DNA of 64,000 nt from Herbaspirillum frisingense (GCA_009914615.1 WNDX01000002.1:18533-82532), one strand, 5' to 3'. Shown: positions 41,369 through 61,461, numbered from the stretch's first letter. Notes: generated from the letters alone by a model not told the origin. Translations and numbers: made by a program.

Positions 41369-41507
41369 GAGATGGCGCCGCGGCCGTCGATCCGAGCAGC
41401 AAAGCGGCGGCGCCTGTTGTGACATGCGGGCGCCGTCGCCCCACGGCTTGCCGGCGCGCGCGTCGGCGTTTTCGCTCCATCCTTCATCGCCCACGGCGGG
41501 AGTCAAC

Positions 41508-42425: not shown

Positions 42426-42468
42426 TGCGGGCCGGCCTTTCCCGACTCTCCCTTCGCGAGGTTCCACG

Positions 42469-44438: not shown

Positions 44439-44465
44439 CCACTCATCGATATTGCGGAGCCACTC

Positions 44466-45155: not shown

Positions 45156-45182
45156 CGGCGGCATTCGCAAAGGAGCCACATC

Positions 45183-46205
45183 ATGAGGCATGGAGACATA
45201 TCGAGCAGCAAGGACGCGGTCGGCGTGGCCGTGGTCAATTACAAGATGCCGCGCCTGCACACCCGCGGCGAGGTGCTGGACAACGCACGCCGGATCGCCG
45301 CCATGCTGGTCGGCATGAAGCAGGGGCTGCCGGGACTGGACCTGGTGGTGTTTCCTGAATATTCCACCCACGGCATCATGTATGACGAAGCCGAGATGCT
45401 TGAGACCGCCGCCACGGTGCCGGGCGACGAGACCCGCATCTTCTCGGAAGCCTGCCGCATCGCCGGCGTGTGGGGCGTGTTCTCGCTGACCGGCGAGCGC
45501 CACGAGGAGCATCCGCGCAAGGCGCCGTACAACACCCTGATCCTGATCGACGACCAGGGCGAGATCGTGCAGAAGTACCGCAAGATCATGCCGTGGACGC
45601 CGATCGAAGGCTGGTATCCGGGCGACCAGACCTACGTCTGCGACGGCCCCAAGGGCCTGAAGATCAGCCTGATCATCTGCGACGACGGCAACTACCCCGA
45701 GATCTGGCGCGACTGCGCCATGAAGGGGGCCGAGCTGGTGGTGCGCTGCCAGGGTTACATGTACCCGGCCAAGGGGCAGCAGATCCTGGTGGCCAAGGCG
45801 ATGGCGTGGATGAACAACGTCTATGTGGCGGTGGCCAACGCGGCCGGCTTCGACGGCGTCTATTCGTACTTCGGCCACTCGGCCATCGTCGGCTTCGACG
45901 GCCGCACGCTGGGCGAATGCGGCACCGAGGAAATGGGCATCCAGTACGCCGAACTCTCGGTGGGCGCGATCCGCGATGCGCGCCGCAACTGGCAATCGCA
46001 GAACCACCTCTTCAAGCTGCTGCACCGTGGTTACACCGGCAAGATCAATTCGGGCGAATCGCCGGCCGGCGTGGCCGATTGTCCCTTCGATTTCTACAAG
46101 ACCTGGGTCACCGATCCGCAGGGCGCGCGCGCCCGGGTGGAGGCGATCACCCGCAAGAGCGCCGGCACCCCGGAATGCCCGGTGCCGGGCATTCCCACGG
46201 AATAA
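45183..46205 (+). CDS. amiE: Aliphatic amidase (nitrilase superfamily)
   Basis: [27 protein letters not shown]-terminus; catalytic E (FPEYS), K (YRKIMPW) and C (ICDDGNYPE). Confidence 0.95.
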
Positions 46206-46308
46206 AACGCAACCGGGCGAAACCACGCCGAATCAAGCCGAATCAAGCGCGGCCGCGCACGACACGCTACAGGCAGCACCACCACGCACCCTACCTAAAG
46301 GAGATCGC

Positions 46309-47487
46309 ATGCAACACTTCAAGATCAAGCCCGGCCAACCGCTGGCCGAACAGCCGGAACTGGGGCACAACCGCTGGCATCCGGATCTGCCGTTCCTGTC
46401 CTCGGTGAAGCCGGGCGAATCGATCCTGATCGAATCGCTGGACTTCCTGGATGCCCAGATCAAGGACACCGACGACGTCTCCGACGTCAAGAACGTCGAT
46501 CTGACGCGCGCCCATCCGCTGACCGGCCCGTTCCACGTCGAAGGCGCAGAACCCGGCGACCTGCTGGTGATCGACCTGCTGGACATCAAACCGGTAACGC
46601 CGGTGGGATTCTCCGGCGTGTTCGCCAAGGAAAACGGCGGCGGCTTCCTGGCCGACTACTTCCCCGATGCCGACAAGGCGATCTGGGACCTCAAGGGGCT
46701 GTACGCAACCTCGCGCCACATCCCCGGCGTGCGTATCGCCGGCCTGACGCACCCCGGCCTGATGGGCTGCCTGCCGTCGCATGACCTGCTGGCCGAGTGG
46801 AACCGCCGCGAGGCGCCGCTGGCGGCCAAGGGCCTGGCCAAGCCGCCCGATCCGAGCACCGCCGTGCTGCGCGGCCTGACCGGCGCCAAGTTCGACGAGA
46901 TGGCCAAGACCGCGGCGCGCACCGTGCCGCCGCGCGAGCATGGCGGCAACACCGACATCAAGGATCTGTCGGCCGGCACGCGCATCTTCTTCCCGGTGTA
47001 CGTCAAGGGCGCCGGTTTCTCGATGGGCGACCTGCACTTCTCGCAGGGCGACGGCGAGATCGGCTTCTGCGGCGCCATCGAGATGGACGGCGTGAGCCAC
47101 GTCGGCTTCGACCTGATCAAGGGCGGCATGGCCAAGTACAACATCACCTCGCCGATCTTCATGCCCAGCATCGTCAAGCCGCACTACGAGCAGTGGCTGA
47201 CCTTCGAAGGCATCAGCGTCGAGAACGGCGTCAATTACTATCTGGACGCGACGGTGGCGTACCGCCAGGCTTGCCTGAAGGCGATCGATTACCTGACGCA
47301 CTTCGGCTACACCGGCAGCCAGGCCTACATGCTGCTGACCGCGGCGCCGGTGGAAGGGCGCATCGGCGGCATCGTCGATATCCCGAACTGCGCCTGCACG
47401 GTGGCCTTGCCGACCTCGATCTTCGACCAGGACATCACGCCCAAGGGCATGCTGAACGACAAGTCCTACTGGGGCCGCAAGCCCTAG
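46309..47487 (+). CDS. fmdA: Acetamidase/formamidase (FmdA family)
   Basis: HNRWHPD, HPLTGPF, PPREHGGNTD, GDLHFSQGDGE and YLDATVAY motifs; RBS AAGGAG. Confidence 0.92.
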   Translation: MQHFKIKPGQPLAEQPELGHNRWHPDLPFLSSVKPGESILIESLDFLDAQIKDTDDVSDVKNVDLTRAHPLTGPFHVEGAEPGDLLVIDLLDIKPVTPVGFSGVFAKENGGGFLADYFPDADKAIWDLKGLYATSRHIPGVRIAGLTHPGLMGCLPSHDLLAEWNRREAPLAAKGLAKPPDPSTAVLRGLTGAKFDEMAKTAARTVPPREHGGNTDIKDLSAGTRIFFPVYVKGAGFSMGDLHFSQGDGEIGFCGAIEMDGVSHVGFDLIKGGMAKYNITSPIFMPSIVKPHYEQWLTFEGISVENGVNYYLDATVAYRQACLKAIDYLTHFGYTGSQAYMLLTAAPVEGRIGGIVDIPNCACTVALPTSIFDQDITPKGMLNDKSYWGRKP

Positions 47488-47889: not shown

Positions 47890-47943
47890 TTGCGCCGCGC
47901 GCAACTGTTTCAGCCAGCGCAGGTACCAGGGCGCGACTATACT
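47890..47943 (+). promoter_or_regulatory. LysR-type box and -10 box of a probably leaderless LysR gene
   Basis: TTGC-N7-GCAA (T-N11-A) at 47890-47904; TATACT at 47938-47943, 6 nt before ATG; no RBS. Confidence 0.4.
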
Positions 47944-47949
47944 GTCGCC

Positions 47950-48858
47950 ATGAGATTGCCGGACCTGAACCTGCTGATCGCCTTCGACGTCCTGCTGGAG
48001 GAAGGCAGCGCCACGGCTGCGGCGCGCCGTCTCAACATCAGCGCGCCGGCCATGAGCCGCACGCTCAATCGCATCCGCGACGCCTTCGGCGACCCGGTGC
48101 TGGTGCGTTCCGGGCGCGGCCTGGCGCCCACGCCGCGCGCGCTGGAGCTGCGTGAGCAGGTGCGCGCCCTGATCGAACAGGCGCACCTGGTGTTCACCGC
48201 CGGGCGCGAGGTCGATCTGATGCAACTGGAGCGCACCTTCAACCTGCGCGCCAATGACGTCTTTGTCGGCACCTTCGGCAGCCGCCTGCGCCAGTTGCTC
48301 GACCGCCATGCGCCGCGCACGGTGCTGCGCTTCGTTTCCGAGGGCGATGTCGATGACCGCGCGATGGAAGAAGGGCGCATCGACCTGTACATCAGCGGCA
48401 GCCGCAACTTCAGCCCGGACACCAAGACCCAGAGCCTGTTCCGCACTGGCTTCGTCGGGCTGGCGCGGGCCGATCATCCGCTCTTCGACGCGCCCATCGA
48501 TGCCGAGCGCTTCGTCGCGCACGCCCACATCAGCGTTTCGCGTCGCGGCCGCGCCAGCGGCCCGATCGACGATGCACTGGCCCGGCAAGGCCTGGCGCGC
48601 CGCGTCACGCTGGTGACGCCCAACTTTCACTCGGCCATCTTCGCCCTGGCGGGCTCGGACCTGATCCTGCCGCTGATGCCGACCAGCATGCTGGACAGCG
48701 TGCGCGCACTCGGCCTGACGCTGCGCGATTTCACGCTGCCGGTGGCGCTGGAACCGGTCAACATCGTCCAGGCCTGGCATCCGCGGCTGGACAACGACGA
48801 CGCCCATCGCTGGCTGCGACGCTTGCTGAAGCAGGCTTGCAGTACGGCCGCGGCCTGA
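47950..48858 (+). CDS. LysR-family transcriptional regulator
   Basis: PDLNLLIAFDVLLEEGSATAAARRLNISAPAMSRTLNRIR HTH. Confidence 0.95.
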   Translation: MRLPDLNLLIAFDVLLEEGSATAAARRLNISAPAMSRTLNRIRDAFGDPVLVRSGRGLAPTPRALELREQVRALIEQAHLVFTAGREVDLMQLERTFNLRANDVFVGTFGSRLRQLLDRHAPRTVLRFVSEGDVDDRAMEEGRIDLYISGSRNFSPDTKTQSLFRTGFVGLARADHPLFDAPIDAERFVAHAHISVSRRGRASGPIDDALARQGLARRVTLVTPNFHSAIFALAGSDLILPLMPTSMLDSVRALGLTLRDFTLPVALEPVNIVQAWHPRLDNDDAHRWLRRLLKQACSTAAA

Positions 48859-50063: not shown

Positions 50064-50936
50064 TTATTCCAGCATGGCGTCCAGCCCGGCCGACAATTCC
50101 TTGAGCGCGGGTATGGCGTGCTCGGCCTTGTCGGGCGCATGCTTGACCAGCAGTGGCGCCCATGCCGGATCCACGCCCAGCTTCTTGCCCACTTGCACGG
50201 GATAGCAGGCGCGCGCGGCCTCGTCGTCGAGTTTCAGGACTTCCACCCGCGCCGCCCAGGCGCCCAGATGCACCCAGCCGGCGGCGCGGTCCAGCTTGCC
50301 CGAGCCCAGCGGGGTCGGCACGTCGCGCAGCGCCGAGGCGAGCGCGTCGGGGAAATTCCAGATCTTGGCCAGTTCGGCGGAGACGTCGGCGTAATGGAAG
50401 CCCCAGGCTTCTTTTTCCTTGTCGGCGCGGGCGGCGTCGAGCACATTGATCTGCTTGTCCAGCGGCGCCACGTCGGCCGCGGCCACCGCGTGCAATTGCA
50501 ACTGGCCGATGCCGTGCATCATGCCGACCGTGAACACGGCGTCGCCGTTGTCTTCGCCGTGGATGCCGGCATGCATGGCCAGCCAGCGCGCGGCCACCGC
50601 GGTGTAGAGGTTGTGGCGCCAGAACTGCGGCAGGTCCATGCCCTTGGTGTTCTTGAAGGCGGCCACCATGCCGTTGCCCAGCACCAGGTTGCGTACCATC
50701 ACGAAGCCCAGCATGCGCAAGGCGTCGTCCACCGTGCCGACGGTGCGCGAGGCGTGGAAGAAAGCGGAATTGGCCGGCCGCAGCAGCTTGGCGGAGAGCG
50801 CCGGATCGGCGGCGATCTGGCGCGCGATGTCGGCGGAGGAGACGTCTTCGGAATTGAAGCTGGCGATCAGTTGCTGAACCACCTTGGGGACTGTCGGCAA
50901 CTTGCCGGGCTGGTCAACCAGGCTGTGGAGCTTCAT
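50064..50936 (-). CDS. HDOD-domain protein
   Basis: LPTVPKVV, IAADPALSAKLL, FWRHN, GMMHGIGQL and WNFP motifs. Confidence 0.92.
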   Translation of the reverse strand: MKLHSLVDQPGKLPTVPKVVQQLIASFNSEDVSSADIARQIAADPALSAKLLRPANSAFFHASRTVGTVDDALRMLGFVMVRNLVLGNGMVAAFKNTKGMDLPQFWRHNLYTAVAARWLAMHAGIHGEDNGDAVFTVGMMHGIGQLQLHAVAAADVAPLDKQINVLDAARADKEKEAWGFHYADVSAELAKIWNFPDALASALRDVPTPLGSGKLDRAAGWVHLGAWAARVEVLKLDDEAARACYPVQVGKKLGVDPAWAPLLVKHAPDKAEHAIPALKELSAGLDAMLE

Positions 50937-51066
50937 GAAGATTCCCTCCGTGCAATTGTTTTGTCATCAATACCGGGAAATGCGGTTCCATTGTCTCAGA
51001 GATCGTGCGATTTGCCGCCTTCTTTCTCCGTATCATGGAGCTGACCAACTACCTGGGAGCAGACCC

Positions 51067-53682
51067 ATGGCAAGCCGCAAGAAGCCCGACGACCGAGCCG
51101 CAACGACCGCAACCACAGCCACCGCCACGGCCGACACGCCCGCGGCAGCGCAGGCTGGCGGCTGGGCCGACCTCAACGCCTACCTGACCGATTCCATGCA
51201 GCGCAGCTTCCTGTTCCTGGAGACACTGTTGGATCGCGGCAACGATTATCTGGAACACCTGGAGCAGGGCACGCCGCCGCTGCTCAAGTTCGACCATGAG
51301 CTGGTGCTGGACGGCCATGACCTGCCGCAGCCCTGCAACTATGCGCTGCTGCGGCTGCAGCCGCCGCCCGGCCTGCCGGTCGATCCGCAGGCGCGGCCGG
51401 TGGTGGTGGTCGATCCGCGCGCCGGCCACGGGCCGGGCATCGGTGGCTTCAAGTTCGATTCCGAGGTGGGCATGGCGATGAAGGCTGGCCACACCGTCTA
51501 TTTCGTGACCTTCCGGCCCGAGCCCGAGGATGGCCAGACCCTGACTTCGGTGATGGATGCCGAAGCCAGTTTCCTGGAAGAGGTGATCCGCCGCCATCCG
51601 CAATGCCAGGCCAAGCCGGTGGTGATCGGCAACTGCCAGGCAGGCTGGGCCATGATGACGCTGGACGCGGTGCGGCCGGAACTGTTCGGGCCGCTGATGA
51701 TGGTGGGCGCGCCGGCCTCCTACTGGGCCGGCAGCTCGCAGCTCAATCCCATGCGCTACAGCGGCGCCACGCTGGGCGGTACCTGGCTGGCTTCGCTGGC
51801 GGCCGATCTCGGCGCCGACCGTTTCGACGGCGCCTATCTGGTAGAGAATTTCGAGAAGCTCAATCCCGCCAACACCTTCTGGAACAAGTATTACAACCTC
51901 TGGTCCGGCGTGGATCACGAAGCGCCGCGCTTCCTGGAATTCGAACGCTGGTGGGGCGGTTTCTTCCGCATGACCGGCGCCGAGATCGAGGCCATCACCG
52001 AGAACCTGTTCGTCGGCAACAAGCTGGCGCGCGGCGAACTGCAGGTCAAGGGCCAGGCCGTCAACCTGCGCGACATCAGCGCGCCCATCGTGGTGTTCGC
52101 CTCCTGGGGCGACAACATCACGCCGCCGCCGCAGGCACTGAACTGGATCATCGACACCTGGGGCGACGAGCGCGCCATCGCCGCCGCCGGCCGCACCATC
52201 ATTTATGTGCTGCACGAGAGCGTGGGTCATCTGGGCATCTTCGTCGGCGGTTCGGTGGCGCTGAAGGAGCACGACCAACTGGTCAGCTCGCTGGACGTGA
52301 TCGAAAGCCTGCCGCCCGGCCTCTATGAAATGAAACTGGAACGCAAGGACGGCAAGCAGACCCAGCGCTGGGACGAACTGGAGCCGGGCGACTACACGGC
52401 GCATTACGAACACCGCACCATGGACGACATCCGCAAGCTCAATCCGGAAGGCCGCGAGGAAGAAGCGATCTTCTCGACCATCAGCCAGTGGTCAGAGATC
52501 AATTCGCGGCTCTACAAGACCTGGCTGCGTCCGTGGGTACGCATGGCATCCACCCGCGAGACCGCCAATGCGCTGATGAAATTCAACGCCATGCGCATGC
52601 AGCGCCAGTTGTTCTCGGATTCGCACCCGGCTGCCGCCTTCATCCGCCATCAAGCCGCCCAGGCGCGCGCCAAGCGGGTGCAGTTGGCCGCGGATCATCC
52701 GCTCAAGCAATTCGAGCAGCGCATGGCTCAGCGCATCACCGACGAGCTCAACGCCTTCCGCGACCAGCGCGACGCGCGCACGGTGAAGATGACGCGCCAG
52801 ATGTTCGGCCCCAACGGCCTGGGCGCCTGGCTGCCGCCGCGCGAAGCCGACGCCGAGGTGGCGCACCGGCGCGCGCTGCATGAATTGGGCGAGTACCGCG
52901 ATGCGGTGCTGGCCGGCATCGACGACGGCGGCTTTGCAGAGGCGGTGTGCCGCATCGTCATCGCTGGCATGGTCTCGATCGGCGCCTTCGAACGCCGCAG
53001 CCTGCGCCTGGCGCGCCTGCTGGCGCAGTTGCCCAACATGCATGCCAGCGTGTCGCCGCAAACCAACTGGGTGCAGTTGCTGAAGGAACAGGCCCGCATC
53101 ACCGCGGTGGCGCCGGTGGAAGCCCTCAACGCGCTGGAACGCATGCTGCCCGACAATGCCACGCGCGAACGCGCGCTGGCGCTGGCGGCGGCGGTGATGA
53201 TGATCGAACCGACGCTGGCCAATCCGCGCGCGGAGATCATCGAATTCCTGATCGGTACGCTGGATGTCGATCCGGACAAGGTGATCGCGCTGGCGCGCAA
53301 GCTGACCACCGCGATCGGCGAACAGCCGGACGAGATCAGCCTGCCGGCGAAGAAGGCGCAGGCCGCCAAGCCGGTAAAAAGAGCGATCAAGGTTACCCCG
53401 GGAAAAGCGGTTCCCGCCAAGGCTCCGTCAACGGCGAAAGCCATCAAGTCGGCACCCAAGCGCGCGGCAAATGCGGGCGTGAAGGCTGCAACGAAGCCGG
53501 TGGTGAAATCGGCCGCCAAACCAGGCACCAAAGCAGGCACCAAACCAGTCGCGAAAACAACGGCAAAAACAACGGCAAAACCAACGGCAAAACCAACGGC
53601 GAAACCGATCGTGCCCAAGACCGGGGTGGCGGCAAGGAAGCCCGCCGCCAGACCTGTCCGTGCAAGGAAAACCGCTGCCTGA
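51067..53682 (+). CDS. DUF3141-like alpha/beta hydrolase (PHA synthase/depolymerase-like) with a histone-like C-terminal tail
   Basis: VDPRAGHGPGIGGFK, IGNCQAGW, WGDNITPP and VGHLGIF motifs; Ala/Lys/Pro/Thr-rich final ~115 aa. Confidence 0.85.
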   Translation: MASRKKPDDRAATTATTATATADTPAAAQAGGWADLNAYLTDSMQRSFLFLETLLDRGNDYLEHLEQGTPPLLKFDHELVLDGHDLPQPCNYALLRLQPPPGLPVDPQARPVVVVDPRAGHGPGIGGFKFDSEVGMAMKAGHTVYFVTFRPEPEDGQTLTSVMDAEASFLEEVIRRHPQCQAKPVVIGNCQAGWAMMTLDAVRPELFGPLMMVGAPASYWAGSSQLNPMRYSGATLGGTWLASLAADLGADRFDGAYLVENFEKLNPANTFWNKYYNLWSGVDHEAPRFLEFERWWGGFFRMTGAEIEAITENLFVGNKLARGELQVKGQAVNLRDISAPIVVFASWGDNITPPPQALNWIIDTWGDERAIAAAGRTIIYVLHESVGHLGIFVGGSVALKEHDQLVSSLDVIESLPPGLYEMKLERKDGKQTQRWDELEPGDYTAHYEHRTMDDIRKLNPEGREEEAIFSTISQWSEINSRLYKTWLRPWVRMASTRETANALMKFNAMRMQRQLFSDSHPAAAFIRHQAAQARAKRVQLAADHPLKQFEQRMAQRITDELNAFRDQRDARTVKMTRQMFGPNGLGAWLPPREADAEVAHRRALHELGEYRDAVLAGIDDGGFAEAVCRIVIAGMVSIGAFERRSLRLARLLAQLPNMHASVSPQTNWVQLLKEQARITAVAPVEALNALERMLPDNATRERALALAAAVMMIEPTLANPRAEIIEFLIGTLDVDPDKVIALARKLTTAIGEQPDEISLPAKKAQAAKPVKRAIKVTPGKAVPAKAPSTAKAIKSAPKRAANAGVKAATKPVVKSAAKPGTKAGTKPVAKTTAKTTAKPTAKPTAKPIVPKTGVAARKPAARPVRARKTAA
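53558..53603 (+). repeat. 12-bp tandem repeat (about 4 copies) in the histone-like tail
   Basis: aaaacaacggca/aaaccaacggca units encoding KTTA-KTTA-KPTA-KPTA; ends approximate. Confidence 0.8.
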
Positions 53683-54414
53683 TCAGTGGTCGTGAATGGC
53701 CGCCCAGAGCAGCGACAGCCCCGACACGATGAGCAGCGCATCCAGCAATCGCTGGTGGTGCCGCTCGCTCATCTTCATCACGAAGGCCTTACCGATGAAG
53801 GTACCGGCCATCAGCGAGCCGCCTACCAGCAGGCCTTGCAGGAACACGCTCAGCGGCATCGCGCCCATCTCGCGGAAGGTCAGCACCTTGCCGACATAGA
53901 GCACCAGCGAGCTGGCTGCTTCGGTGGAGAGGAAGGCGCCCTTGGTCAGGCCGTAGGCGGTGAAGGCGGGCACGCTCAGCGGGCCGGTGGAGAGCACGAT
54001 GCCGGTCAGGTAGCCGATGACGCCGCCGCAGATGGCCAGTTGCCACAGCGCCAGCTTGAAGTTGTGGCGCTTGAGCCAGTGCCGCACCGGCACCATGGCG
54101 ATGAAGAACAGGCCGAGGCCGATGTCGATCCAGTGTGCGGGCAGCGTCAGCAGCGTGCGCGCACCGAGGATGGCGGCCGGCACACCGGTGATCGAATAGG
54201 CCGCGAACGCGCGCCAGTCCACCACGCGCCACCAGGCCAGCACGCGCGACAGGTTGGCCATCACGGCGGCGACCGCCATGATGGGTACCGCCTGCTTGGG
54301 GCCGAAGTTATAGACCAGCACCGGCAACAGCATGATGGAGGAGCCGGTGCCGATGACGCCGCTGATCATGCCGGCCGCAAGGCCGACGGCGAGGACGAAG
54401 AGGTAGGCAGTCAT
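53683..54414 (-). CDS. TauE/SafE-family (sulfite exporter-like) membrane protein
   Basis: GLAAGMISGVIGTGSSIMLLP and GYLTGIVLSTGP motifs; multiple TM segments. Confidence 0.9.
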   Translation of the reverse strand: MTAYLFVLAVGLAAGMISGVIGTGSSIMLLPVLVYNFGPKQAVPIMAVAAVMANLSRVLAWWRVVDWRAFAAYSITGVPAAILGARTLLTLPAHWIDIGLGLFFIAMVPVRHWLKRHNFKLALWQLAICGGVIGYLTGIVLSTGPLSVPAFTAYGLTKGAFLSTEAASSLVLYVGKVLTFREMGAMPLSVFLQGLLVGGSLMAGTFIGKAFVMKMSERHHQRLLDALLIVSGLSLLWAAIHDH

Positions 54415-54520
54415 GGAGGTTTTTTTCGTCTTGGAAGGGCCATTATAGGGGCCCGCATCGCTCAGTGCTGAGTGCGACGTAGCGAGACGATATGACGTGA
54501 AGTGACGTGGCGAACGACGC

Positions 54521-54621
54521 TGGATCCCGGCCTGCGCCAGGACGACACTGTGGAGATGGCCAATGCCTTCTTTCGTTCACGCAGCTTGCTACCCGCCATC
54601 CCGGCGCAGGCCGGGATGGCG
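54521..54621. repeat. Pair of CGTC-type REP-like palindromes
   Basis: TGGATCCCGGCCTGCGCCAGGACGAC (54521-54546) and CGCCATCCCGGCGCAGGCCGGGATGGCG (54594-54621), both related to 41343-41368. Confidence 0.6.
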
Positions 54622-54630
54622 GAGATGGGG

Positions 54631-55458
54631 TTAAGGCCGCTCGCCCGCCGCCAGACGCGTCTCGATCTGCGCCATCACGCCCGGCAGATCGGCCACCGAA
54701 TCGATCACGTAGTGCGCGCCGGCCGCGCGCAGGCGCGCTTCGGCTTGCTGCTTCAGCGCGGCGACTTGAGCCGGCTCAAGTGCATCGAGCTGGGCCCGGG
54801 TGCAGCCGACTTCGTTGCCCGAGAGCGAAACGCCCACGCTCCACATGCCCGCGCGGATGCCTTCTTCGATGCCGGGCACGGTGTCGTCCACCTTGATGCA
54901 GCCGGCCACGTCGCCCACCTTCAGCGCCAGCACGTTGGCCAGCGCCATGTAGGGGCCGGGGCGGCCGCCGGCTTCCAGTTCGTCGCCGGCCACCACGTGG
55001 TCGGGGGCGATGCCGTCGCGCGCTGCCAGCGGCAATAGCACGTTCAGCACTTCGCGCGGATAGCCCGAGCAGGAGCCGACCTTCAGGCCGCGTGCGCGCA
55101 GCGCCGACAGCAGTTGCGCGGCGCCTTCGATGGGTTGCGAATACTCGCCGACCTTGGCGATCTGCATCGGCATGAAGCGCGCGTAGATGGCGTCCACGTC
55201 GCGGTCGGTGGGTTCGTGGCCGGTGTAGGTCTTCCATTGCGCGGCGATGGAGGCATCGTCCAGCAGCGTGCGGATGTGCTGCCACTTCGACAGGCCCATG
55301 GGGCCGCGCGCCTGTTCCAGCGTGATGGCGATGTCGAAGCTCTTGAAGGCATCGACGAAGATCTGGGTCGGCGCCAGCGAGCCGAAATCGACCAGGGTGC
55401 CGGCCCAGTCGAAGATGACGGCTTGCAGGGCGATGGCGGGGCGGACGGTGGTGGTCAT
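54631..55458 (-). CDS. phnX: Phosphonoacetaldehyde hydrolase (phosphonatase)
   Basis: IFDWAGT (HAD motif I), MGLSKWQHI (Schiff-base Lys), GRPGPYM and KVDDT motifs. Confidence 0.95.
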   Translation of the reverse strand: MTTTVRPAIALQAVIFDWAGTLVDFGSLAPTQIFVDAFKSFDIAITLEQARGPMGLSKWQHIRTLLDDASIAAQWKTYTGHEPTDRDVDAIYARFMPMQIAKVGEYSQPIEGAAQLLSALRARGLKVGSCSGYPREVLNVLLPLAARDGIAPDHVVAGDELEAGGRPGPYMALANVLALKVGDVAGCIKVDDTVPGIEEGIRAGMWSVGVSLSGNEVGCTRAQLDALEPAQVAALKQQAEARLRAAGAHYVIDSVADLPGVMAQIETRLAAGERP

Positions 55459-55480
55459 GAGGAACTCCTTGGTCAATGGT

Positions 55481-56566
55481 TCAGTGGGCGGCGGCGATGA
55501 AGTTGCGGCCGCGCGGTCCTTGCAGGGCGCGCTGCACCAGCGCGTCCCAGGCATCGGCGATGCCGTAGTGGGCGGGATCGGTGGACACCCCGAGGTCTTC
55601 CAGGAAACGGCTCAGGCGCGCGATGGCGCCGTCCTTGTCGGTGGCGCCGAAGATCTGCAGCAGCAGCGCATCGACCGTGTCGTCGCGACCGAAGGCCAGG
55701 CGCATCACGTGCGGCAGCGAGAACGAGCAGGCGATGCCGTGCGCCACGCCGTGGTGCAGCGTGATGTCGTAGGACAGCGAATGCGCCAGCGCGGTCTTGG
55801 TGTTGGAGAACGCCAGCCCGGCCTGCAATGCGGCCACCGCCATGCGCTCGCGCAGGACGATGTCGTTGGGCTTGCGCATCAGCGCCGGCAGCGTGGCGAC
55901 GATTTCCCGCGCGGCGACCGCGGCCAGGCTGGCCGAGACCGGATTGCGGTTGACGTTCCAGATGGCTTCCAGCGCATGCGACAACGCATCCAGGCCGCTG
56001 GCCAGCGTGGCGCCGGGCGGCAGGCTCAGCATCAGCCGCGGATCGACCAGCGCCGCTTCCGGCCAGGTCCAGGCGCGGTGCAAGGAATACTTGCTGCCGG
56101 CGGCGGCGTCCCAGATGGTGGCCCAGGGTGTGACTTCGCTGCCGGTACCCGCGGTGGTGGGAACGGCGATCAGCGCCTTGGCGCCGGCCGCGTCCAGCGG
56201 CGCGCCATCGCGCAGGTGCGCCAGCAATTCGTCGAAGCGGCCCGAGGGCGTGGGCGCCAGCATGGCCTTGGCGCAGTCGATCACGCTGCCGCCACCGAAG
56301 GCGATGATGCACTCGACGTCGCGGTGGCGCGACCACACGCGTTCGTACATGGCGGCCAGCCAACTGACGTCGGGGTTGGGCTGCACCGCGTTCTCGATGC
56401 CGGCCAAGCGCGCGCCGAGCAGATTGGCGAGGTATTGCTCCAGGCCCAGCGCCTGCGCTTCGGGGAAGGTGATCAGCAGCGCGCGGCGGCCGGCCAGCAA
56501 CTCGGGCAAGCGCGCCAGGCTGCCGGCGCCGGCGTGCACTGCGACCGGATTATGAAAATTCCACAT
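55481..56566 (-). CDS. Iron-containing (group III) alcohol dehydrogenase, phosphonate-associated
   Basis: GGGSVIDCAK, PTTAGTGSEVT, DALSHALE, AHSLSY and HGIAC motifs. Confidence 0.9.
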   Translation of the reverse strand: MWNFHNPVAVHAGAGSLARLPELLAGRRALLITFPEAQALGLEQYLANLLGARLAGIENAVQPNPDVSWLAAMYERVWSRHRDVECIIAFGGGSVIDCAKAMLAPTPSGRFDELLAHLRDGAPLDAAGAKALIAVPTTAGTGSEVTPWATIWDAAAGSKYSLHRAWTWPEAALVDPRLMLSLPPGATLASGLDALSHALEAIWNVNRNPVSASLAAVAAREIVATLPALMRKPNDIVLRERMAVAALQAGLAFSNTKTALAHSLSYDITLHHGVAHGIACSFSLPHVMRLAFGRDDTVDALLLQIFGATDKDGAIARLSRFLEDLGVSTDPAHYGIADAWDALVQRALQGPRGRNFIAAAH

Positions 56567-56600
56567 GAGACAGTTTCTTGAAAAAGGAGGGTTGCCAGGT

Positions 56601-57449
56601 TCAGTGCGCGCGGCCGTCCTGGATCATCTGGCGCAGGCGGCTGGACATCGCATCGGCCGCTACCACCATCAGGGTCACCACCACGATGCAGGTCGCGGTG
56701 TCCTGGTACTTGAACAGCTTCAGGCTGTTGACCAGTTCGAAACCCAGGCCGCCGGCGCCCACCATGCCCAGCACGGTGGCCTGGCGCAGGTTGACTTCGA
56801 AGCGGTAGAGCACGGTGGCGATCCAGGCGGTGATGACTTGCGGCAGCACGCCGAACACGATCACCTGCAGCGGCCGGGCGCCGGTGGCGCGCAGCGCTTC
56901 CAGCGGGCCGTCGTCGATTTCCTCGATGCTCTCGGCGAAGAACTTGCCGACCATGCCCACGCCGTGCACCGCCAGCGCCAGCACGCCGGGGAAGGGGCCG
57001 AGGCCGACCGCCGAGACGAACACCAGCGCCAGGATCAGTTCGTTGATGCTGCGCGTGACGTTGAGCGCCTGACGCACCGCGTTGTACACGGCGCGGTTGC
57101 GGTTCAGGTTGCGCGCGGCCAGGAAGGACACGGGAATGGCGCCGATCACGCCCAGCAACGTGCCCCAGAGTGCGATCTGCACGGTTTCGATGGCCGGCGT
57201 GAGCAGGTTGCCGAGGATGCTCCAGTTGGGCGGCACCGAACGCGAGATGAAGTCGCCGATCTGCGGCAGGCCGCCAGCCAGCTCGCTCCACGACAGTTGC
57301 GTGCCTTGCGCGCTCCAGGCCAGCACCACGGCCACCAGGATCACGGCGGCCACGCACAGCAGCCAGGAGCGCAGCTTGAGCGGACGCGGGCCGGTCCAGA
57401 CGTAGTCGTGGTAGCTGGCGCCCTTGGCGGGTTGCATCGGAGTGCTCAT
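56601..57449 (-). CDS. phnE: Phosphonate ABC permease
   Basis: RSINELILALVFV, GLGPFPG, FAESIEE and RQATVLGMVGAGGLG motifs; an alternative GTG start is at 57452. Confidence 0.93.
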   Translation of the reverse strand: MSTPMQPAKGASYHDYVWTGPRPLKLRSWLLCVAAVILVAVVLAWSAQGTQLSWSELAGGLPQIGDFISRSVPPNWSILGNLLTPAIETVQIALWGTLLGVIGAIPVSFLAARNLNRNRAVYNAVRQALNVTRSINELILALVFVSAVGLGPFPGVLALAVHGVGMVGKFFAESIEEIDDGPLEALRATGARPLQVIVFGVLPQVITAWIATVLYRFEVNLRQATVLGMVGAGGLGFELVNSLKLFKYQDTATCIVVVTLMVVAADAMSSRLRQMIQDGRAH

Positions 57450-58249
57450 CACAGGGCTCCTTGGGCGGACAGTTCCGGCGCCGGCTGGCGCGCGGCGGCG
57501 GGCGCGGCGTGCTGGACCTGGTCCAGACCGGCGTAGATCAGATTGAGATGGGAATCGCGCAGCTCGTCGCCGCGGCCGTCCAACACCAGCTTGCCGCCGG
57601 CCAGGCCGACGATGCGGTCGCCGAATTCGCGGGCGTAGTCCACCTGGTGCAGATTGCAGACCACGGTGATGCCCAGTTCGCGGCAGGCGGCGCGCAGGTA
57701 TTGCAGCACCAGGCGCGAGGTCTTGGGATCGAGGCTGGCCACCGGTTCGTCGGCCAGGATCACTTGCGGCCGCTGGGCCAGGGCGCGGGCGATGCCGACC
57801 CGCTGGCGCTGGCCGCCGGACAGGGCGTCGGTACGTTCATGGGCCTTGTGGTCGAGCTCGACCCGGCGCAGGCAATCCATGGTCAACGCCACGTCCTGGC
57901 GCGAGAACAATTGCAGGATGGACGCCAGCGAGGACACCTGGCCGAGCCGCCCGGTCAGCACGTTCTTCAGTACCGACAGGCGCGGCACCACGTTGTGATG
58001 CTGGAAGATCATGGCCACGTTGCGGCGCAGCTGGCGTACCTTGCGCGCATCGGTGGCGTCGTATCCGGCCGCCACCAGTTCGCCGGACGTCGGTGCGACC
58101 AGGCCGTTGATACAGCGCAGCAGGGTCGATTTGCCGGCGCCCGACGGGCCCAGCACCACCAGGAACTCGCCGGCGGCGACATCGAGGTCGATGCCGCGCA
58201 GCACGGCATTGCTGCCGTATTGCTTGGTGAGCGAACGGATCCGTATCAT
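57449..58249 (-). CDS. phnC: Phosphonate ABC ATPase
   Basis: GPSGAGKST, NVLTGRLG, LSGGQRQRV, ADEPVASLDP and NLHQV motifs. Confidence 0.95.
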   Translation of the reverse strand: MIRIRSLTKQYGSNAVLRGIDLDVAAGEFLVVLGPSGAGKSTLLRCINGLVAPTSGELVAAGYDATDARKVRQLRRNVAMIFQHHNVVPRLSVLKNVLTGRLGQVSSLASILQLFSRQDVALTMDCLRRVELDHKAHERTDALSGGQRQRVGIARALAQRPQVILADEPVASLDPKTSRLVLQYLRAACRELGITVVCNLHQVDYAREFGDRIVGLAGGKLVLDGRGDELRDSHLNLIYAGLDQVQHAAPAAARQPAPELSAQGAL

Positions 58250-59112
58250 TTCATGGCCTTGAGGTCGAGGTTGAGGATCTTGGCGGTGTCGCGCACCACG
58301 TTGTAGGCGGCGTCATTGGTGGTGAGGAAGCCGTTGAGCACGCCCTGGTCGCCCCATTGCACATCCTTGATGCTGGCGAAGGCGGCGGCGATCTTCTGCT
58401 TCAGCGCCGGATCCAGGTCCTTGCGCCAGACCATCGGCGACTCGGGGATATCGGGCGAGGTCCACACCACGTTCAGATCGGACTGCTGCACCACGCCCTT
58501 GGCGACGGCGGCGGCCAGGATGCGATCGGCCACGGCGGCGGCATCGACCTTCTTGTTGGCCACGGCCAGGATGCTGGCGTCATGCGAACCGGAGAAGATC
58601 ACCCGCGAGAAATACTTGTTGGGATCGATATTGAGCTTGTGCAGGCCGGCGCTGGGGAACAGGTGGCCGGAGGCGGACGAGGGATCGACGAAGGCCATGG
58701 TGCGGCCCTTCAGTTGTTCCAGGTTCTGGATGCCGCTGTCCTTGCGGGTGATGATCAGGCTCTTGTAGTAGCTCTTGCCGCTTTTCTTGGTCTCGGCCAC
58801 GGAGAAGGCTTCGACGTTGGCCACCGAGGTGGCCAGCACGTAGGAGAAGGGACCGAGGTAGGCCACGTCCAGCTTCTTGGAGCGCAGCGCTTCGATGATG
58901 CCGTTGTAGTCGGTGGCGATGAAGGGCTTGACCGGCATGCCCAACTGCTTTTGCAGGCTGTCGATGACGGCCTTGCTGTTTTCCAGCATCGCCTGCGAAT
59001 CTTCGGCCGGGATCAGGCCGACCGTCAGGGTCTGCGCGGCGACGGCCGGCTGGCCCAGCAGGGAGGCGGCGAGGGCGCCCAGGCAGAGGGCGAAGAGAGA
59101 GCGGCGTTTCAT
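58246..59112 (-). CDS. phnD: Phosphonate ABC substrate-binding protein
   Basis: Signal peptide; TDYNGIIEA, YLGPFSY, DPSSASG and GSHDAS motifs. Confidence 0.93.
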   Translation of the reverse strand: MKRRSLFALCLGALAASLLGQPAVAAQTLTVGLIPAEDSQAMLENSKAVIDSLQKQLGMPVKPFIATDYNGIIEALRSKKLDVAYLGPFSYVLATSVANVEAFSVAETKKSGKSYYKSLIITRKDSGIQNLEQLKGRTMAFVDPSSASGHLFPSAGLHKLNIDPNKYFSRVIFSGSHDASILAVANKKVDAAAVADRILAAAVAKGVVQQSDLNVVWTSPDIPESPMVWRKDLDPALKQKIAAAFASIKDVQWGDQGVLNGFLTTNDAAYNVVRDTAKILNLDLKAMK

Positions 59113-59325
59113 GTTTTATCCTTAATCGATGGCGCGGCGGGTACGCAGGTCCGGCGCATCCGCCGTCTTCATGGGCGGGCGGCCGGGAATAAATGCAAAA
59201 CGGGCAAGAAGCGTGGTGCAGCAAGGGTTTTGGTCCGGACAGCGTGAAGATTAAAGAGGCTTTATGACGCCTTTATTATCGATATAATCCTAAAAATGAT
59301 TGGTAACTATTGATAGGATCTATAG

Positions 59326-60186
59326 ATGACGCCCTCCCAATTGCGCGCTTTCCTGGCCGTGGCGCGCCATCGCGGCTTTTCCGCCGCGGCGCGCGCGCTG
59401 GGCGTGAGCCAGCCGACGCTGACCACCCAGGTGCAATCGCTGGAGCGCGAGCACAACGTGGAGCTGTTCTTTCGCCGCGGGCGCCGCCTGGATCTGTCGG
59501 AAACCGCGCAGCGCCTGCTGCCGATCGCCCAGAACATTGCCGAGCTGGAATTGGATGCGCTGAATCTGCTGGTCAACTCCGGCGTGCTGCACGTGGGGCA
59601 TCTGCGCATCGGCGCGGTCGGGCCGTTCCACGTGATCGAGATGGTGGATGCCTACCGTGCGCGCTATCCGCGGGTCGAGCTGTCGATCAAGCTGGGCAAT
59701 TCGGCGCAGTCGCTGGCCGACCTGGAAAATTACGTGACCGACGTGGCGGTGCTGGCCAGCTTCAATGACGACGCGCGCTTCCACGCCGTGCCCTATGCCG
59801 ACCACGCCGTGGTGTTGTTCGCGCACCGCAGCCATCCTTTCTATAAGCGCGAATCGGTACGTCTTGAAGAGTTGGACAATCAGCCCATGCTGATGCGCGA
59901 GCAGGGATCGACGACCCGGCTGGCGTTGGAGAAGGTGATGCAGCAAGCCGGCATCGCGCCTCAGGTGGTGATGGAAATTGGCAGCCGCGAGGCGTTGCGC
60001 GAGGCGGTCGCGCGCGGGCTGGGGCTGGGGTCGGTGTCGGAGGCGGAGTTCGTGCCGGATCCGCGATTCCGCATGGTGCGCATCGAGGGCGATCCGGTCA
60101 GCACCCACACTTATGTGTATTGCCTGGCCGAGCGGCGCGAAGGGCGGCTGGTCGGCTCCTTCATGAAGATTGCCGCGCGCGGCTGA
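59326..60186 (+). CDS. LysR-family regulator divergent from the phn operon
   Basis: QLRAFLAVARHRGFSAAARALGVSQPTLTTQV HTH. Confidence 0.93.
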   Translation: MTPSQLRAFLAVARHRGFSAAARALGVSQPTLTTQVQSLEREHNVELFFRRGRRLDLSETAQRLLPIAQNIAELELDALNLLVNSGVLHVGHLRIGAVGPFHVIEMVDAYRARYPRVELSIKLGNSAQSLADLENYVTDVAVLASFNDDARFHAVPYADHAVVLFAHRSHPFYKRESVRLEELDNQPMLMREQGSTTRLALEKVMQQAGIAPQVVMEIGSREALREAVARGLGLGSVSEAEFVPDPRFRMVRIEGDPVSTHTYVYCLAERREGRLVGSFMKIAARG

Positions 60187-60261
60187 AGTGGCGGCGGACT
60201 GAAGCGGGCCTTTCGCTTATCATGACGGTTTGCCCGAATTTTCAAGCAGCGGAGACCGAAC

Positions 60262-60564
60262 GTGATCAAACATATCGTGATGTGGAAGTTGAAGGACCAT
60301 GCGGAAGGCGCCGACAAGGCCACCAACCTGCGCAAGATGAAAGAGCTGCTGGACAGCTGCGCCAACGTGGTGCCGGGCATTCTGAAGTTCGAAGCGGTGC
60401 TGGCCCAGCCGGGCCTGGAAGCCAGCTATGACGTGGTGCTGTACTCCGAGTTCGAATCGCGCGCGGCGTTGGATGCCTATCAGGATCACCCCGATCACGT
60501 GGCCATCAAGCCCTTCATCGGCGCGGTGCGCGAAGCGCGCCAGTGCATGGACTACGAAATCTGA
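60262..60564 (+). CDS. Dabb-family (stress-responsive A/B barrel) protein
   Basis: IKHIVMWKLK, YDVVLYSEFES and YQDHPDH motifs; GTG start. Confidence 0.9.
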   Translation: MIKHIVMWKLKDHAEGADKATNLRKMKELLDSCANVVPGILKFEAVLAQPGLEASYDVVLYSEFESRAALDAYQDHPDHVAIKPFIGAVREARQCMDYEI

Positions 60565-60575: not shown

Positions 60576-61007
60576 ATGAGCCTGGCCCTGACCGACGTTT
60601 TCCCGCAGGGGAATCCCTATCTGCATTCGCTGGGCGTGCAGGTGCTGGAATACGAGGATGACCGCGCCGTGATGGCGCTGCTGCTCAAGCCCGAATTCAT
60701 GAACAGTTGGCACGTGGCGCAAGGCGGCATCTCGATGACGTTGATGGACGTGGCCATGGGCCTGGCCGCGCGCGCCGGCACCGATGCCAAGTCCTCAGCC
60801 ACGGTGGAGATGAGCAGCAGCTTCCTGCAACCGGCTGGCCATGCCGGCGACACCCTGGTGGCGCGCGGGCATACCTATCACCGCTCGACCACGCTGTGCT
60901 TCTGCCAGGCCGAACTGTGGAACGGCGAGCGGCTGGTGGCCAAGGCCATGGGCACGTTCAAGCTGGTGCGCCGGCTGGACATCAACAAAAAGCTCGACCA
61001 CGAATAA
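60576..61007 (+). CDS. PaaI-family thioesterase
   Basis: MNSWHVAQGG...MDVAMG hotdog motif. Confidence 0.88.
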   Translation: MSLALTDVFPQGNPYLHSLGVQVLEYEDDRAVMALLLKPEFMNSWHVAQGGISMTLMDVAMGLAARAGTDAKSSATVEMSSSFLQPAGHAGDTLVARGHTYHRSTTLCFCQAELWNGERLVAKAMGTFKLVRRLDINKKLDHE

Positions 61008-61041
61008 GCCCAGGCAAACGCAAGCAAAAGGACGACATCAG

Positions 61042-61461
61042 ATGAAAATCATCGTGGGCAATTGGGAAGCGCTGCGCGGCCATGCGCAGCCGATTCGTTT
61101 CGAAGTCTTCGTGGACGAACAGAAGGTGCTGGCCGAGATTGAGCTGGACGAGATGGATGCGGTCTGCGTGCATGCCGTGGCGTATGCCGAAGACGGTTCG
61201 CCGCTGGCCACCGGTCGCCTGCTGCCGGACGGGCACGTGGGCCGCATGGCGGTGCTGAAGGCGGGGCGCGGCAAGGGCGTGGGCGGCGCGGTGCTGCAAG
61301 CGCTGATCAAGGCGGCGCGCGAGCGCGGCGACAAGGAAGTGATCCTCAACGCCCAGACACACGCCGAGAAGTTCTACGCCGCGCACGGCTTCGCGCGCGA
61401 AGGCGACGAATTCATGGAAGCGGGCATTCCCCACATCACCATGCGCGCCAGCCTGGCGTAA
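61042..61461 (+). CDS. GNAT N-acetyltransferase (ElaA/YjcF-like)
   Basis: IRFEVFVDEQ, GRMAV...RGKGVG, NAQTHA and GIPH motifs. Confidence 0.9.
   Translation: MKIIVGNWEALRGHAQPIRFEVFVDEQKVLAEIELDEMDAVCVHAVAYAEDGSPLATGRLLPDGHVGRMAVLKAGRGKGVGGAVLQALIKAARERGDKEVILNAQTHAEKFYAAHGFAREGDEFMEAGIPHITMRASLA

What the first reader, a model, noticed from the sequence alone, without database searches (positions are those of the whole stretch)
54631..60186. phnDCE, iron ADH and phnX without phnW: candidate 2-hydroxyethylphosphonate catabolic operon
Seen: phnD-phnC-phnE-ADH-phnX are tightly packed and divergent from a LysR gene; no phnW aminotransferase or C-P lyase is in the window. Established: PhnX cleaves phosphonoacetaldehyde, usually supplied from 2-aminoethylphosphonate by PhnW. 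Group III iron ADHs (PhpC, FomC) interconvert phosphonoacetaldehyde and 2-hydroxyethylphosphonate (HEP) in biosynthesis. Inference: the ADH runs oxidatively, HEP to phosphonoacetaldehyde to acetaldehyde plus Pi, under substrate-responsive LysR control. The linkage of such ADHs to phnX has been noted in family annotations, but I know of no biochemical proof.
Basis: partly seen in the sequence, partly recalled or inferred. Interest (0 to 1): 0.65.

Follow-up and report, generated by a model that had tools for sequence, protein, structure and literature searches.

The report
Hydroxyethylphosphonate uptake and breakdown operon
This is a real six-gene cluster that most likely lets a Herbaspirillum-like bacterium import 2-hydroxyethylphosphonate, oxidise it and split off phosphate.

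Summary
On the minus strand, phnD, phnC, phnE, a PF00465 alcohol dehydrogenase and phnX form one tight operon, with 4-nt overlaps and 34- and 22-nt gaps. A LysR gene is transcribed divergently. No phnW, pbfD, phnY, phnA, C-P lyase or pepM lies in the 64-kb window.

Piazza et al. (Protein Sci 2026, PMC13576164) showed that a "degradative PhpC" from Paraburkholderia fungorum oxidises 2-hydroxyethylphosphonate (HEP) to phosphonoacetaldehyde with NAD+. They also showed that adding PhnX releases phosphate, and they described phnW-less phpC-phnX clusters as HEP clusters.

The window's enzyme is 49% identical to that protein. It keeps all eight metal- and HEP-binding residues named in the paper, passes NCBIfam TIGR03405, and falls in the same well-supported clade. 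The same six-gene layout recurs in Herbaspirillum, Comamonas, Aquipseudomonas and several other assemblies.

Three points go beyond the paper:
- The PhnD binding protein has an Ala/Ser-Arg-Ser "cap" in place of the amine-binding Thr-Glu-Asp of E. coli PhnD or the Asp/Tyr cap of phosphite binders.
- A unique CTAT-N11-ATAG LysR box sits in the control region.
- A strong hairpin ends the operon.

The parts
58246..59112 (-). phnD: periplasmic phosphonate-binding protein (288 aa, signal peptide). Cap residues are A36/R197/S225.
   Evidence: TIGR03431 scores 275 bits, above its cut-off, and PF12974 matches. The nearest solved structures are PtxB phosphite binders, then E. coli PhnD. Cap residues come from the alignment.
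57449..58249 (-). phnC: ABC transporter ATPase. Its start overlaps the phnD stop by 4 nt.
   Evidence: TIGR02315 scores 310 bits against a cut-off of 266.
56601..57452 (-). phnE: ABC transporter permease. Its start overlaps the phnC stop by 4 nt.
   Evidence: TIGR01097 scores 302 bits against a cut-off of 217.
55481..56566 (-). PhpC-type (PF00465, TIGR03405, named 'PsrA' by NCBI) alcohol dehydrogenase; predicted NAD+-dependent HEP dehydrogenase.
   Evidence: TIGR03405 scores 479 bits against a cut-off of 424. It is 49% identical to the characterised P. fungorum PhpC, with D193/H197/H262/H276 and K159/T258/Y266/R352 conserved.
54631..55458 (-). phnX: phosphonoacetaldehyde hydrolase (275 aa from the ATG at 55458).
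   Evidence: TIGR01422 scores 326 bits against a cut-off of 220. PDB phosphonatases match at E 1e-57 to 1e-69. AAGGAG lies 6 nt before the ATG, and the gene is called as 275 aa in L081/L082.
54593..54622 (-). Perfect 13-bp GC-rich hairpin 9 nt after the phnX stop codon; probable operon end. It has no U-tract.
   Evidence: Folding gives -33.4 kcal/mol, z = -5.3 against shuffles. It is unique in the window.
59113..59325 (.). Divergent control region between phnD and the LysR gene.
   Evidence: Sequence. The consensus scan found no sigma-70 match and no Pho-box-like site.
59307..59325 (.). CTAT-N11-ATAG dyad (a LysR-type T-N11-A box) abutting the LysR start codon.
   Evidence: This is the only match in the 64 kb, against 0.07 expected. 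Equivalent dyads sit at the same place in L082, L005, L001 and L003.
59326..60186 (+). LysR-family regulator, divergent from the operon.
   Evidence: PF00126 and PF03466 match. TIGR03339 'phn_lysR' scores 317 bits, below its cut-off of 341. It is 39-42% identical to the LysR genes of AEP clusters in P. aeruginosa and Ralstonia.

Best explanation
This is a substrate-specific operon for using 2-hydroxyethylphosphonate (HEP). PhnDCE imports HEP. The PhpC-type dehydrogenase oxidises it with NAD+ to phosphonoacetaldehyde. PhnX hydrolyses the C-P bond irreversibly to acetaldehyde and phosphate, which pulls the unfavourable oxidation forward. The divergent LysR regulator probably binds the CTAT-N11-ATAG box and switches the operon on when the substrate or an intermediate is present.

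Shown here: gene identities, operon packing, conservation of the layout, conservation of the active-site residues, and family membership. Shown by others on a 49%-identical homologue: the two-enzyme chemistry. Inferred: the transporter's ligand, the regulator's effector, and activity in this organism.
For: 1. Family assignments are above curated cut-offs for phnD, phnC, phnE, the ADH and phnX.
2. Piazza et al. 2026 showed that P. fungorum PhpC oxidises HEP with NAD+, that PhnX pulls the reaction and releases Pi, and that ethanol, 1-propanol, isethionate, AEP, glycolate and threonine are not substrates. They also showed that phpC-phnX clusters without phnW are common.
3. The window's ADH is 49% identical to that enzyme (E 2e-107). 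All residues the paper names are conserved. These include Tyr266, which is Phe in sulfoacetaldehyde reductase.
4. In the tree, all TIGR03405-type ADHs form one clade (97/98). The window's sub-clade of five (96/96) is entirely phnDCE-ADH-phnX.
5. The same six-gene layout occurs in Herbaspirillum (L082), Comamonas antarctica (L086), L005, Aquipseudomonas (L093) and a soil MAG (L094). Other orthologues sit with phnY or phnA-phnY. None has phnW or pbfD within 10 kb.
6. PhnD keeps the phosphonate-oxygen ligands. However, it replaces the amine-binding E177/D205 of E. coli PhnD with Arg/Ser, and it lacks the Tyr cap of phosphite binders.
7. No biosynthetic gene (pepM or ppd) or AEP-entry gene lies in the window.
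Against: - There is no experiment on this protein or organism, and identity to the characterised enzyme is only 49%.
- PhpC is a poor HEP oxidiser in vitro (kcat/KM 270 M-1 s-1), and the equilibrium favours reduction.
- A close relative of the characterised enzyme, PsrA of B. cenocepacia, has a genetic phenotype in lipid-peroxidation stress.
- The PhnD ligand is inferred only. One PhnDCE with the same cap (Variovorax YR752, L095) has no ADH or phnX beside it.
phnW, pbfD or C-P lyase elsewhere cannot be excluded.
Confidence: 0.8

Rival explanations
1. This is an AEP (2-aminoethylphosphonate) operon whose entry enzyme (PhnW or PbfD) is encoded elsewhere. The ADH has only a side role, for example reducing the acetaldehyde made by PhnX to ethanol or buffering phosphonoacetaldehyde.
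For: PhnX is best known from the AEP route. The LysR is nearest to the AEP-associated family TIGR03339. The rest of the genome could not be searched.
Against: - The characterised homologue does not use ethanol or AEP, and AEP inhibits it.
- The phosphonate-clamping residues K159/R352/Y266 are conserved.
- PhnD lacks the acidic residues that bind the AEP amine.
- None of about 20 orthologous contexts has phnW or pbfD nearby.
- Expressing PhpC together with PhnX on AEP-derived phosphonoacetaldehyde is counter-productive according to Piazza et al..
Confidence: 0.07
2. The transporter and ADH act on a different phosphorus compound. One option is a related hydroxyalkylphosphonate that the ADH also converts. 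Another is that PhnDCE is a general phosphonate/phosphite scavenger merely co-transcribed with the enzymes.
For: PhnD is more similar to the PtxB phosphite binders than to E. coli PhnD. A PhnDCE with the same cap occurs without ADH or phnX in Variovorax YR752, next to phosphoesterase genes. An Arg in the cap could also suit an anionic side chain.
Against: - The capping Tyr and Asp that confer phosphite specificity are Ser and Ala here.
- PhnX needs phosphonoacetaldehyde, so the ADH substrate must be HEP.
- In 9 of the 10 contexts examined, the Arg/Ser-cap PhnDCE is linked to the ADH.
Confidence: 0.07
3. The ADH is a PsrA/YqhD-like reductase that detoxifies aldehydes formed by lipid peroxidation, unrelated to phosphonate use.
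For: NCBI names the family PsrA after B. cenocepacia K56-2. There, a deletion raised lipid-peroxidation markers and E. coli YqhD complemented it.
Against: - The activity of PsrA was never assayed, and that gene is not linked to phosphonate genes.
- Here the gene lies inside a phnDCE-phnX operon.
- The window protein is only 50% identical to the B. cepacia-complex type and sits in a different sub-clade.
Confidence: 0.04
4. The ADH works in the biosynthetic direction (phosphonoacetaldehyde to HEP), as PhpC, FomC and DhpG do.
For: The reaction is reversible, and reduction is kinetically and thermodynamically favoured.
Against: There is no pepM or phosphonopyruvate decarboxylase in the window. The gene is co-operonic with an importer and with PhnX, which destroys the would-be substrate.
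Confidence: 0.01

Closest known systems
Degradative PhpC-PhnX cluster for HEP catabolism (Paraburkholderia fungorum WP_074772540; Piazza et al., Protein Sci 2026, PMC13576164)
   Same: It has the same ADH family (TIGR03405, PF00465), with 49% identity and all named Zn- and HEP-binding residues. It has a divergent LysR, phnX in the operon and no phnW. The predicted two-step chemistry is the same.
   Different: The P. fungorum cluster is LysR <-> phnX-phpC-MFS transporter. Here the order is phnD-phnC-phnE-ADH-phnX with an ABC importer. The two enzymes lie in separate sub-clades of the family.
PbfG-type HEP clusters (PF00107 Zn-dehydrogenase plus phnX or phnY-phnA; same paper)
   Same: The pathway logic and the absence of phnW are the same.
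   Different: The dehydrogenase fold is unrelated, and PbfG is about 300-fold more efficient in vitro. It occurs mostly in Actinomycetota, Planctomycetota and Bacteroidota.
PhnW-PhnX phosphonatase pathway for 2-aminoethylphosphonate (P. aeruginosa, Salmonella, B. cereus)
   Same: PhnX and a related LysR regulator are shared. Phosphonoacetaldehyde is the common intermediate.
   Different: The entry enzyme there is a transaminase (PhnW) or an oxidase (PbfD), as seen in L091, L089 and L090. Here an alcohol dehydrogenase takes that place, and the substrate-binding protein lacks amine-binding residues.
PsrA of Burkholderia cenocepacia K56-2 (Naguib et al., PLoS Biol 2022, PMC9113575)
   Same: It belongs to the same NCBIfam family, and NCBI's product name comes from it. 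The B. cepacia-complex type is about 50% identical.
   Different: psrA is not linked to phosphonate genes. Its role is inferred from a stress phenotype, and no enzymatic assay was done.
PhnD/PtxB family of periplasmic binding proteins (E. coli PhnD 3P7I; Trichodesmium and P. stutzeri PtxB 5JVB, 5O2J; Bisson et al., Nat Commun 2017, PMC5700983)
   Same: The fold and the conserved phosphonate-oxygen ligands are shared (Y69, Y116, S146, S148 and H177 here).
   Different: The cap residues differ: Ala36/Arg197/Ser225 here, Thr14/Glu177/Asp205 in the AEP binder, and Asp22/Tyr208 in the phosphite binder.

Membership tests
Degradative PhpC-type HEP dehydrogenase (TIGR03405 / PF00465) | Scores above the curated cut-off of the equivalog model TIGR03405 and has the PF00465 plus PF25137 domains | tested here: met
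   TIGR03405 scores 479.1 bits against a cut-off of 423.7. PF00465 and PF25137 match.
Degradative PhpC-type HEP dehydrogenase (TIGR03405 / PF00465) | Metal ligands Asp191, His195, His260, His274 (P. fungorum numbering) | tested here: met
   D193, H197, H262 and H276 are aligned and identical. They are invariant in 14 homologues.
Degradative PhpC-type HEP dehydrogenase (TIGR03405 / PF00465) | HEP-binding residues Lys157, Arg349, Thr256 and the PhpC-specific Tyr264 (Phe in sulfoacetaldehyde reductase) | tested here: met
   K159, R352, T258 and Y266 are conserved. Y266 aligns with Phe in 6JKO.
Degradative PhpC-type HEP dehydrogenase (TIGR03405 / PF00465) | Falls in the same clade as the characterised enzyme, apart from other Fe-ADHs | tested here: met
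   A 19-row clade has 97/98 support and a long stem. P. fungorum PhpC lies inside it.
Degradative PhpC-type HEP dehydrogenase (TIGR03405 / PF00465) | Clustered with phnX or phnY-phnA, and not with pepM/ppd or phnW/pbfD | tested here: met
   It is in an operon with phnX. None of the other genes is in the window.
Degradative PhpC-type HEP dehydrogenase (TIGR03405 / PF00465) | NAD+-dependent oxidation of HEP to phosphonoacetaldehyde | not testable with these tools
   This needs an enzyme assay. It has been shown only for the 49%-identical P. fungorum protein.
Phosphonoacetaldehyde hydrolase PhnX (TIGR01422, HAD superfamily) | Scores above the equivalog cut-off; has the nucleophile Asp in the DxAGT motif and the Schiff-base Lys (Asp12 and Lys53 in B. 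cereus, recalled from the literature) | tested here: met
   TIGR01422 scores 325.7 bits against a cut-off of 220. D17 lies in FDWAGT and K58 in GLSKWQH, at the constant offset of 5 given by the PDB match 10-267 to 5-261.
PhnD phosphonate-binding protein (TIGR03431) | Scores above the equivalog cut-off and keeps the phosphonate-oxygen ligands | tested here: met
   TIGR03431 scores 275 bits against a cut-off of 261.1. Y69, Y116, S146, S148 and H177 are conserved.
2-AEP-specific PhnD (E. coli type) | Thr14/Glu177/Asp205 cap that binds the amino group | tested here: not met
Phosphite-binding PtxB | Capping Tyr208 and Asp22 (P-H...pi interaction and steric exclusion) | tested here: not met
   Ser225 and Ala36 occupy those positions. 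There is no ptxD in the window.
AEP-catabolism-associated LysR (TIGR03339) | Scores above the subfamily cut-off | tested here: not met
   The score is 317.1 bits against a cut-off of 341.1. This is the nearest family but the gene is not a member. It is 39-42% identical to the LysR genes of AEP clusters.

The most novel reading that the evidence does not exclude
The PhnD of this operon may represent an undescribed specificity class in the PhnD/PtxB family: a dedicated HEP-binding protein. Its ligand cap is Ala/Ser-Arg-Ser, in place of the Thr-Glu-Asp cap of the AEP binder or the Asp/Tyr cap of phosphite binders. This cap is conserved in 117 to 120 of the 120 closest homologues. It is linked to the PhpC-type dehydrogenase in 9 of the 10 genomic contexts examined, across Beta-, Gamma- and Alphaproteobacteria. 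If so, the cap would give a sequence marker for HEP uptake in genomes and metagenomes.
Probability: 0.45. Interest if true: 0.35.

Novelty: new member of a known kind. Interest (0 to 1): 0.17.

Why it matters
HEP is thought to be an abundant natural phosphonate, and dedicated routes for its mineralisation were recognised only in 2026. This locus adds one more instance, from a beetle-associated Herbaspirillum-like MAG.

The locus also shows that an ABC-importer form of the cluster (phnDCE-phpC-phnX with a LysR gene) is widespread and stable in Burkholderiales. It points to a candidate HEP-specific binding protein whose cap residues could be used to annotate HEP uptake.

It does not change what is known about the pathway.

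Tried and rejected
- **Whole-genome tools.** I therefore could not test whether phnW, pbfD, C-P lyase or pepM lie elsewhere in the genome. I found no other route. The genome is a MAG from a beetle metagenome, and read laying needs a near-identical DNA reference that I did not have.
- **Genome-contig scan.** It returned only ten true orthologues among 80 loci, and none from Herbaspirillum. I obtained closer contexts through the look-up of encoding contigs and the plasmid collection instead.
- **Paper supplements.** The paper's supplementary tables are not held, so I could not check whether this exact cluster type or genus is listed there.
- **Promoter and terminator scan.** The consensus scan found no sigma-70 promoter and no terminator for the operon. 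The hairpin after phnX lacks a U-tract, so its role as a terminator is an inference.
- **Pho box.** A search with up to 3 mismatches found nothing in the control region. Pho control is therefore neither shown nor excluded.
- **Rfam.** There is no credible RNA family in 53500-60400.
- **TauE gene.** I considered the downstream TauE gene (53683-54414) as a seventh operon member and rejected it. It is absent from the otherwise syntenic Herbaspirillum locus. It also lies beyond the hairpin and a 217-nt gap.
- **PhnD cap as a marker.** I considered the Arg/Ser cap as an exclusive marker of HEP clusters and rejected exclusivity, because L095 has it without ADH or phnX.
- **Literature.** A literature search for phosphonate use in Herbaspirillum gave nothing useful.


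Full report
**1. Observation**

ORF listing and translation show five co-directional minus-strand genes and one divergent plus-strand gene inside 54631-60186.

NCBIfam places five of them above curated equivalog cut-offs:

| Gene | Coordinates | Model | Bits / cut-off |
|---|---|---|---|
| phnD | 58246-59112 | TIGR03431 | 275 / 261 |
| phnC | 57449-58249 | TIGR02315 | 310 / 266 |
| phnE | 56601-57452 | TIGR01097 | 302 / 217 |
| Fe-ADH-family gene | 55481-56566 | TIGR03405 | 479 / 424 |
| phnX | 54631-55458 | TIGR01422 | 326 / 220 |

Pfam agrees. The plus-strand gene at 59326-60186 is a LysR regulator. Its nearest family is the AEP-associated TIGR03339 (317 bits), below that model's cut-off of 341.

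The longest phnX ORF starts at 55554 and would overlap the ADH gene. The real start is the ATG at 55458, which has AAGGAG 6 nt upstream. An independent gene call on a Logan contig with the identical protein also gives 275 aa.

The junctions are two 4-nt overlaps and gaps of 34 and 22 nt. This fits one transcript.

A perfect 13-bp GC hairpin lies 9 nt after the phnX stop, at 54593-54622. It folds at -33.4 kcal/mol with z = -5.3 and is unique in the window. It lacks a U-tract.

**2. Nothing else for phosphonates in the window**

I called ORFs by GC3 and scanned nearly all of them against Pfam. The rest of the window holds:
- a cobalamin biosynthesis region;
- a urea/amide-type ABC transporter with an amidase and a formamidase;
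- a hybrid sensor kinase and a response regulator;
- HDOD, DUF3141 and TauE genes;
- Dabb, thioesterase and GNAT genes;
- a chemoreceptor and a DctA-type symporter.

The one aminotransferase (32280-33296) is class I/II and lies inside the cob genes. It is not PhnW.

tblastn with PhnW (P. aeruginosa), two PbfD oxidases, PhnY, PhnA and PhnZ taken from other loci found nothing in the window at E <= 1e-3.

The rest of the genome could not be searched. It is a MAG from a beetle metagenome.

**3. What is already known**

NCBIfam now calls TIGR03405 'iron-containing alcohol dehydrogenase PsrA'. A literature search led to Piazza et al., Protein Sci 2026;35:e70783 (PMC13576164). I read the paper. Its main points are:
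- Non-biosynthetic phpC homologues usually cluster with phnX or phnY-phnA, and seldom with phnW or pbfD.
- Recombinant PhpC from Paraburkholderia fungorum (WP_074772540) oxidises HEP with NAD+ (kcat 0.36 s-1, KM 1.36 mM).
- PhnX pulls this otherwise unfavourable reaction and releases phosphate.
- The enzyme is Zn-activated.
- It does not use AEP, isethionate, threonine, ethanol, 1-propanol or glycolate.
- An AlphaFold3 model names Asp191/His195/His260/His274 as metal ligands. It names Lys157, Arg349, Thr256 and the PhpC-specific Tyr264 as HEP ligands.
- Many organisms with such clusters also have separate AEP clusters.

The name PsrA comes from Naguib et al. 2022 (PMC9113575). It rests on a lipid-peroxidation phenotype of a B. 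cenocepacia mutant. No enzyme assay was done, and that gene is not linked to phosphonate genes.

**4. How the window's enzyme relates to the characterised one**

I recovered the P. fungorum protein from the protein collection (P0279). The window's ADH is 49% identical to it over 361 residues (E 2e-107).

All eight named residues are conserved: D193, H197, H262, H276, K159, T258, Y266 and R352. They are also invariant among 14 homologues of 65-100% identity. In the best PDB match, sulfoacetaldehyde reductase 6JKO/6JKP, Y266 aligns with Phe, as the paper describes.

A maximum-likelihood tree puts all 19 TIGR03405-type sequences in one clade (97/98) on a long stem, away from other Fe-ADHs. The window's protein lies in a five-member sub-clade (96/96) whose members all sit in phnDCE-ADH-phnX operons. 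P. fungorum PhpC pairs with the B. cepacia-complex PsrA type (100/99). The order of the sub-clades is unresolved.

**5. Conservation of the cluster**

The closest ADH homologues are from Herbaspirillum (80-87% identity).

The layout LysR <-> phnD-phnC-phnE-ADH-phnX is identical in five other loci:
- a Herbaspirillum assembly (L082; proteins 85-94% identical);
- a Comamonas antarctica replicon (L086);
- L005;
- Aquipseudomonas ullengensis (L093);
- a soil MAG (L094).

Other orthologues show these contexts:
- phnY (L001), phnA and phnY (L002, L006);
- phnX with an MFS or Opp-type transporter (L004, L088, and the characterised P. fungorum cluster L092);
- a transporter only (L003, L007, L008, L010, L087).

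None has phnW or pbfD within 10 kb. Typical AEP clusters fetched for comparison do have them (L089 to L091).

In L082 the operon ends at phnX and abuts a formamidase cluster. In the window, a block from the TauE gene to a LysR gene is inserted there. TauE is therefore not part of the unit.

**6. The binding protein**

The nearest solved structures to PhnD are the phosphite binders PtxB (5JVB, 5LV1, 5O2J; E 1e-45 to 1e-40). E. coli PhnD is further away (3P7I, 1e-30).

Bisson et al. 2017 (PMC5700983) describe how specificity is set by cap residues:
- Asp22 and Tyr208 in PtxB exclude anything larger than P-H.
- Thr14, Glu177 and Asp205 in E. coli PhnD hold the amino group of AEP.

In the window's PhnD the oxygen ligands are kept (Y69, Y116, S146, S148, H177), but the cap is Ala36/Arg197/Ser225.

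The same Ser/Ala-Arg-Ser cap is found in every ADH-linked PhnD of this type that I examined (L082, L005, L086, L002, L006 and the Vibrio locus L087). Three alphaproteobacterial ADH-linked PhnDs have Thr-His-Asp instead.

Among the 120 closest database homologues (72% identity or more), 117 have Arg and all 120 have Ser at these positions.

This argues against both phosphite and AEP as ligands. It fits a neutral, hydrogen-bonding side chain such as hydroxyethyl. It is not proof. One locus with this cap (Variovorax YR752, L095) has no ADH or phnX beside it.

**7. Regulation**

The 213-nt divergent region carries a CTAT-N11-ATAG dyad at 59307-59325. It is the only such site in the 64 kb, against 0.07 expected. 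Equivalent dyads sit next to the LysR start in L082, L005, L001 and L003. This is the classic LysR T-N11-A arrangement, with autoregulation.

I found no Pho-box-like site, no consensus sigma-70 promoter and no Rfam element. Substrate-responsive LysR control is therefore plausible. It remains an inference, and the effector is unknown.

**8. Verdict**

It matches a pathway published in September 2026, so the finding is a new member of a known kind. Earlier notes of this scan on similar loci in other genomes reached the same conclusion.

Rival readings each have low support:
- an AEP operon with a remote phnW;
- a different ligand for the transporter;
- PsrA-like aldehyde detoxification;
- the biosynthetic direction.

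The only element with some novelty is the PhnD cap signature. It may mark HEP-specific binding proteins.

Noticed in passing
window 53683-54414 (-) to about 48858: Relative to the syntenic Herbaspirillum locus L082, the window has an inserted block between phnX and the Zn-ribbon/formamidase genes. The block holds a TauE/SafE-family anion exporter, a DUF3141 protein, an HDOD protein, small ORFs and a second LysR gene (47890-48858).
   Followed up: partly
window 50884-53682 (+): This DUF3141 protein is 871-932 aa long, depending on the start chosen. It ends in a long, low-complexity Ala/Lys/Pro/Thr-rich tail (repeated AKPT/AKTT-like units) that resembles histone-H1-like or granule-associated tails. 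Its function is unknown.
   Followed up: no
window 39900-47487 (+): This is an amide-utilisation cluster. It has a urea/amide-type binding protein (PF13433), two permeases, two ATPases, a CN-hydrolase (aliphatic amidase type) and a formamidase (FmdA_AmdA). A hybrid sensor kinase and a LuxR-type response regulator are transcribed divergently at 35089-39589. The same cluster flanks the phn operon in L082.
   Followed up: no
window about 11900-34755 (+): This is a long aerobic-type cobalamin biosynthesis region. It includes CbtA, CobN, a ChlI/VWA chelatase subunit, several precorrin methylases, CbiD, CbiG, CobK, CobO, CobB/CobQ amidases, CobU, CobD and a class I/II aminotransferase (CobC/CobD type).
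   Followed up: no
L095 9637-11820 (Variovorax sp. YR752): A phnDCE with the same Ala/Ser-Arg-Ser PhnD cap is followed by a 727-aa protein with only a faint histidine-phosphatase hit, not by ADH-phnX. It sits next to phospholipase C and phosphodiesterase genes. It may represent a different use of this transporter type.
   Followed up: no
L007, L008, L010, L087: Several orthologous ADH genes sit with LysR and phnDCE(E) but have no C-P-cleaving enzyme within 10 kb. This occurs in alphaproteobacterial MAGs and on a Vibrio pelagius plasmid. In these cases phosphonoacetaldehyde must be handled by enzymes encoded elsewhere, or the module has another role.
   Followed up: no
window 60841-61461 (+): The GNAT acetyltransferase ORF is listed as 206 aa, but only its last 140 aa or so match GNAT domains. 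The L082 orthologue is called at 139 aa, so the true start is probably the internal Met near 61040.
   Followed up: no
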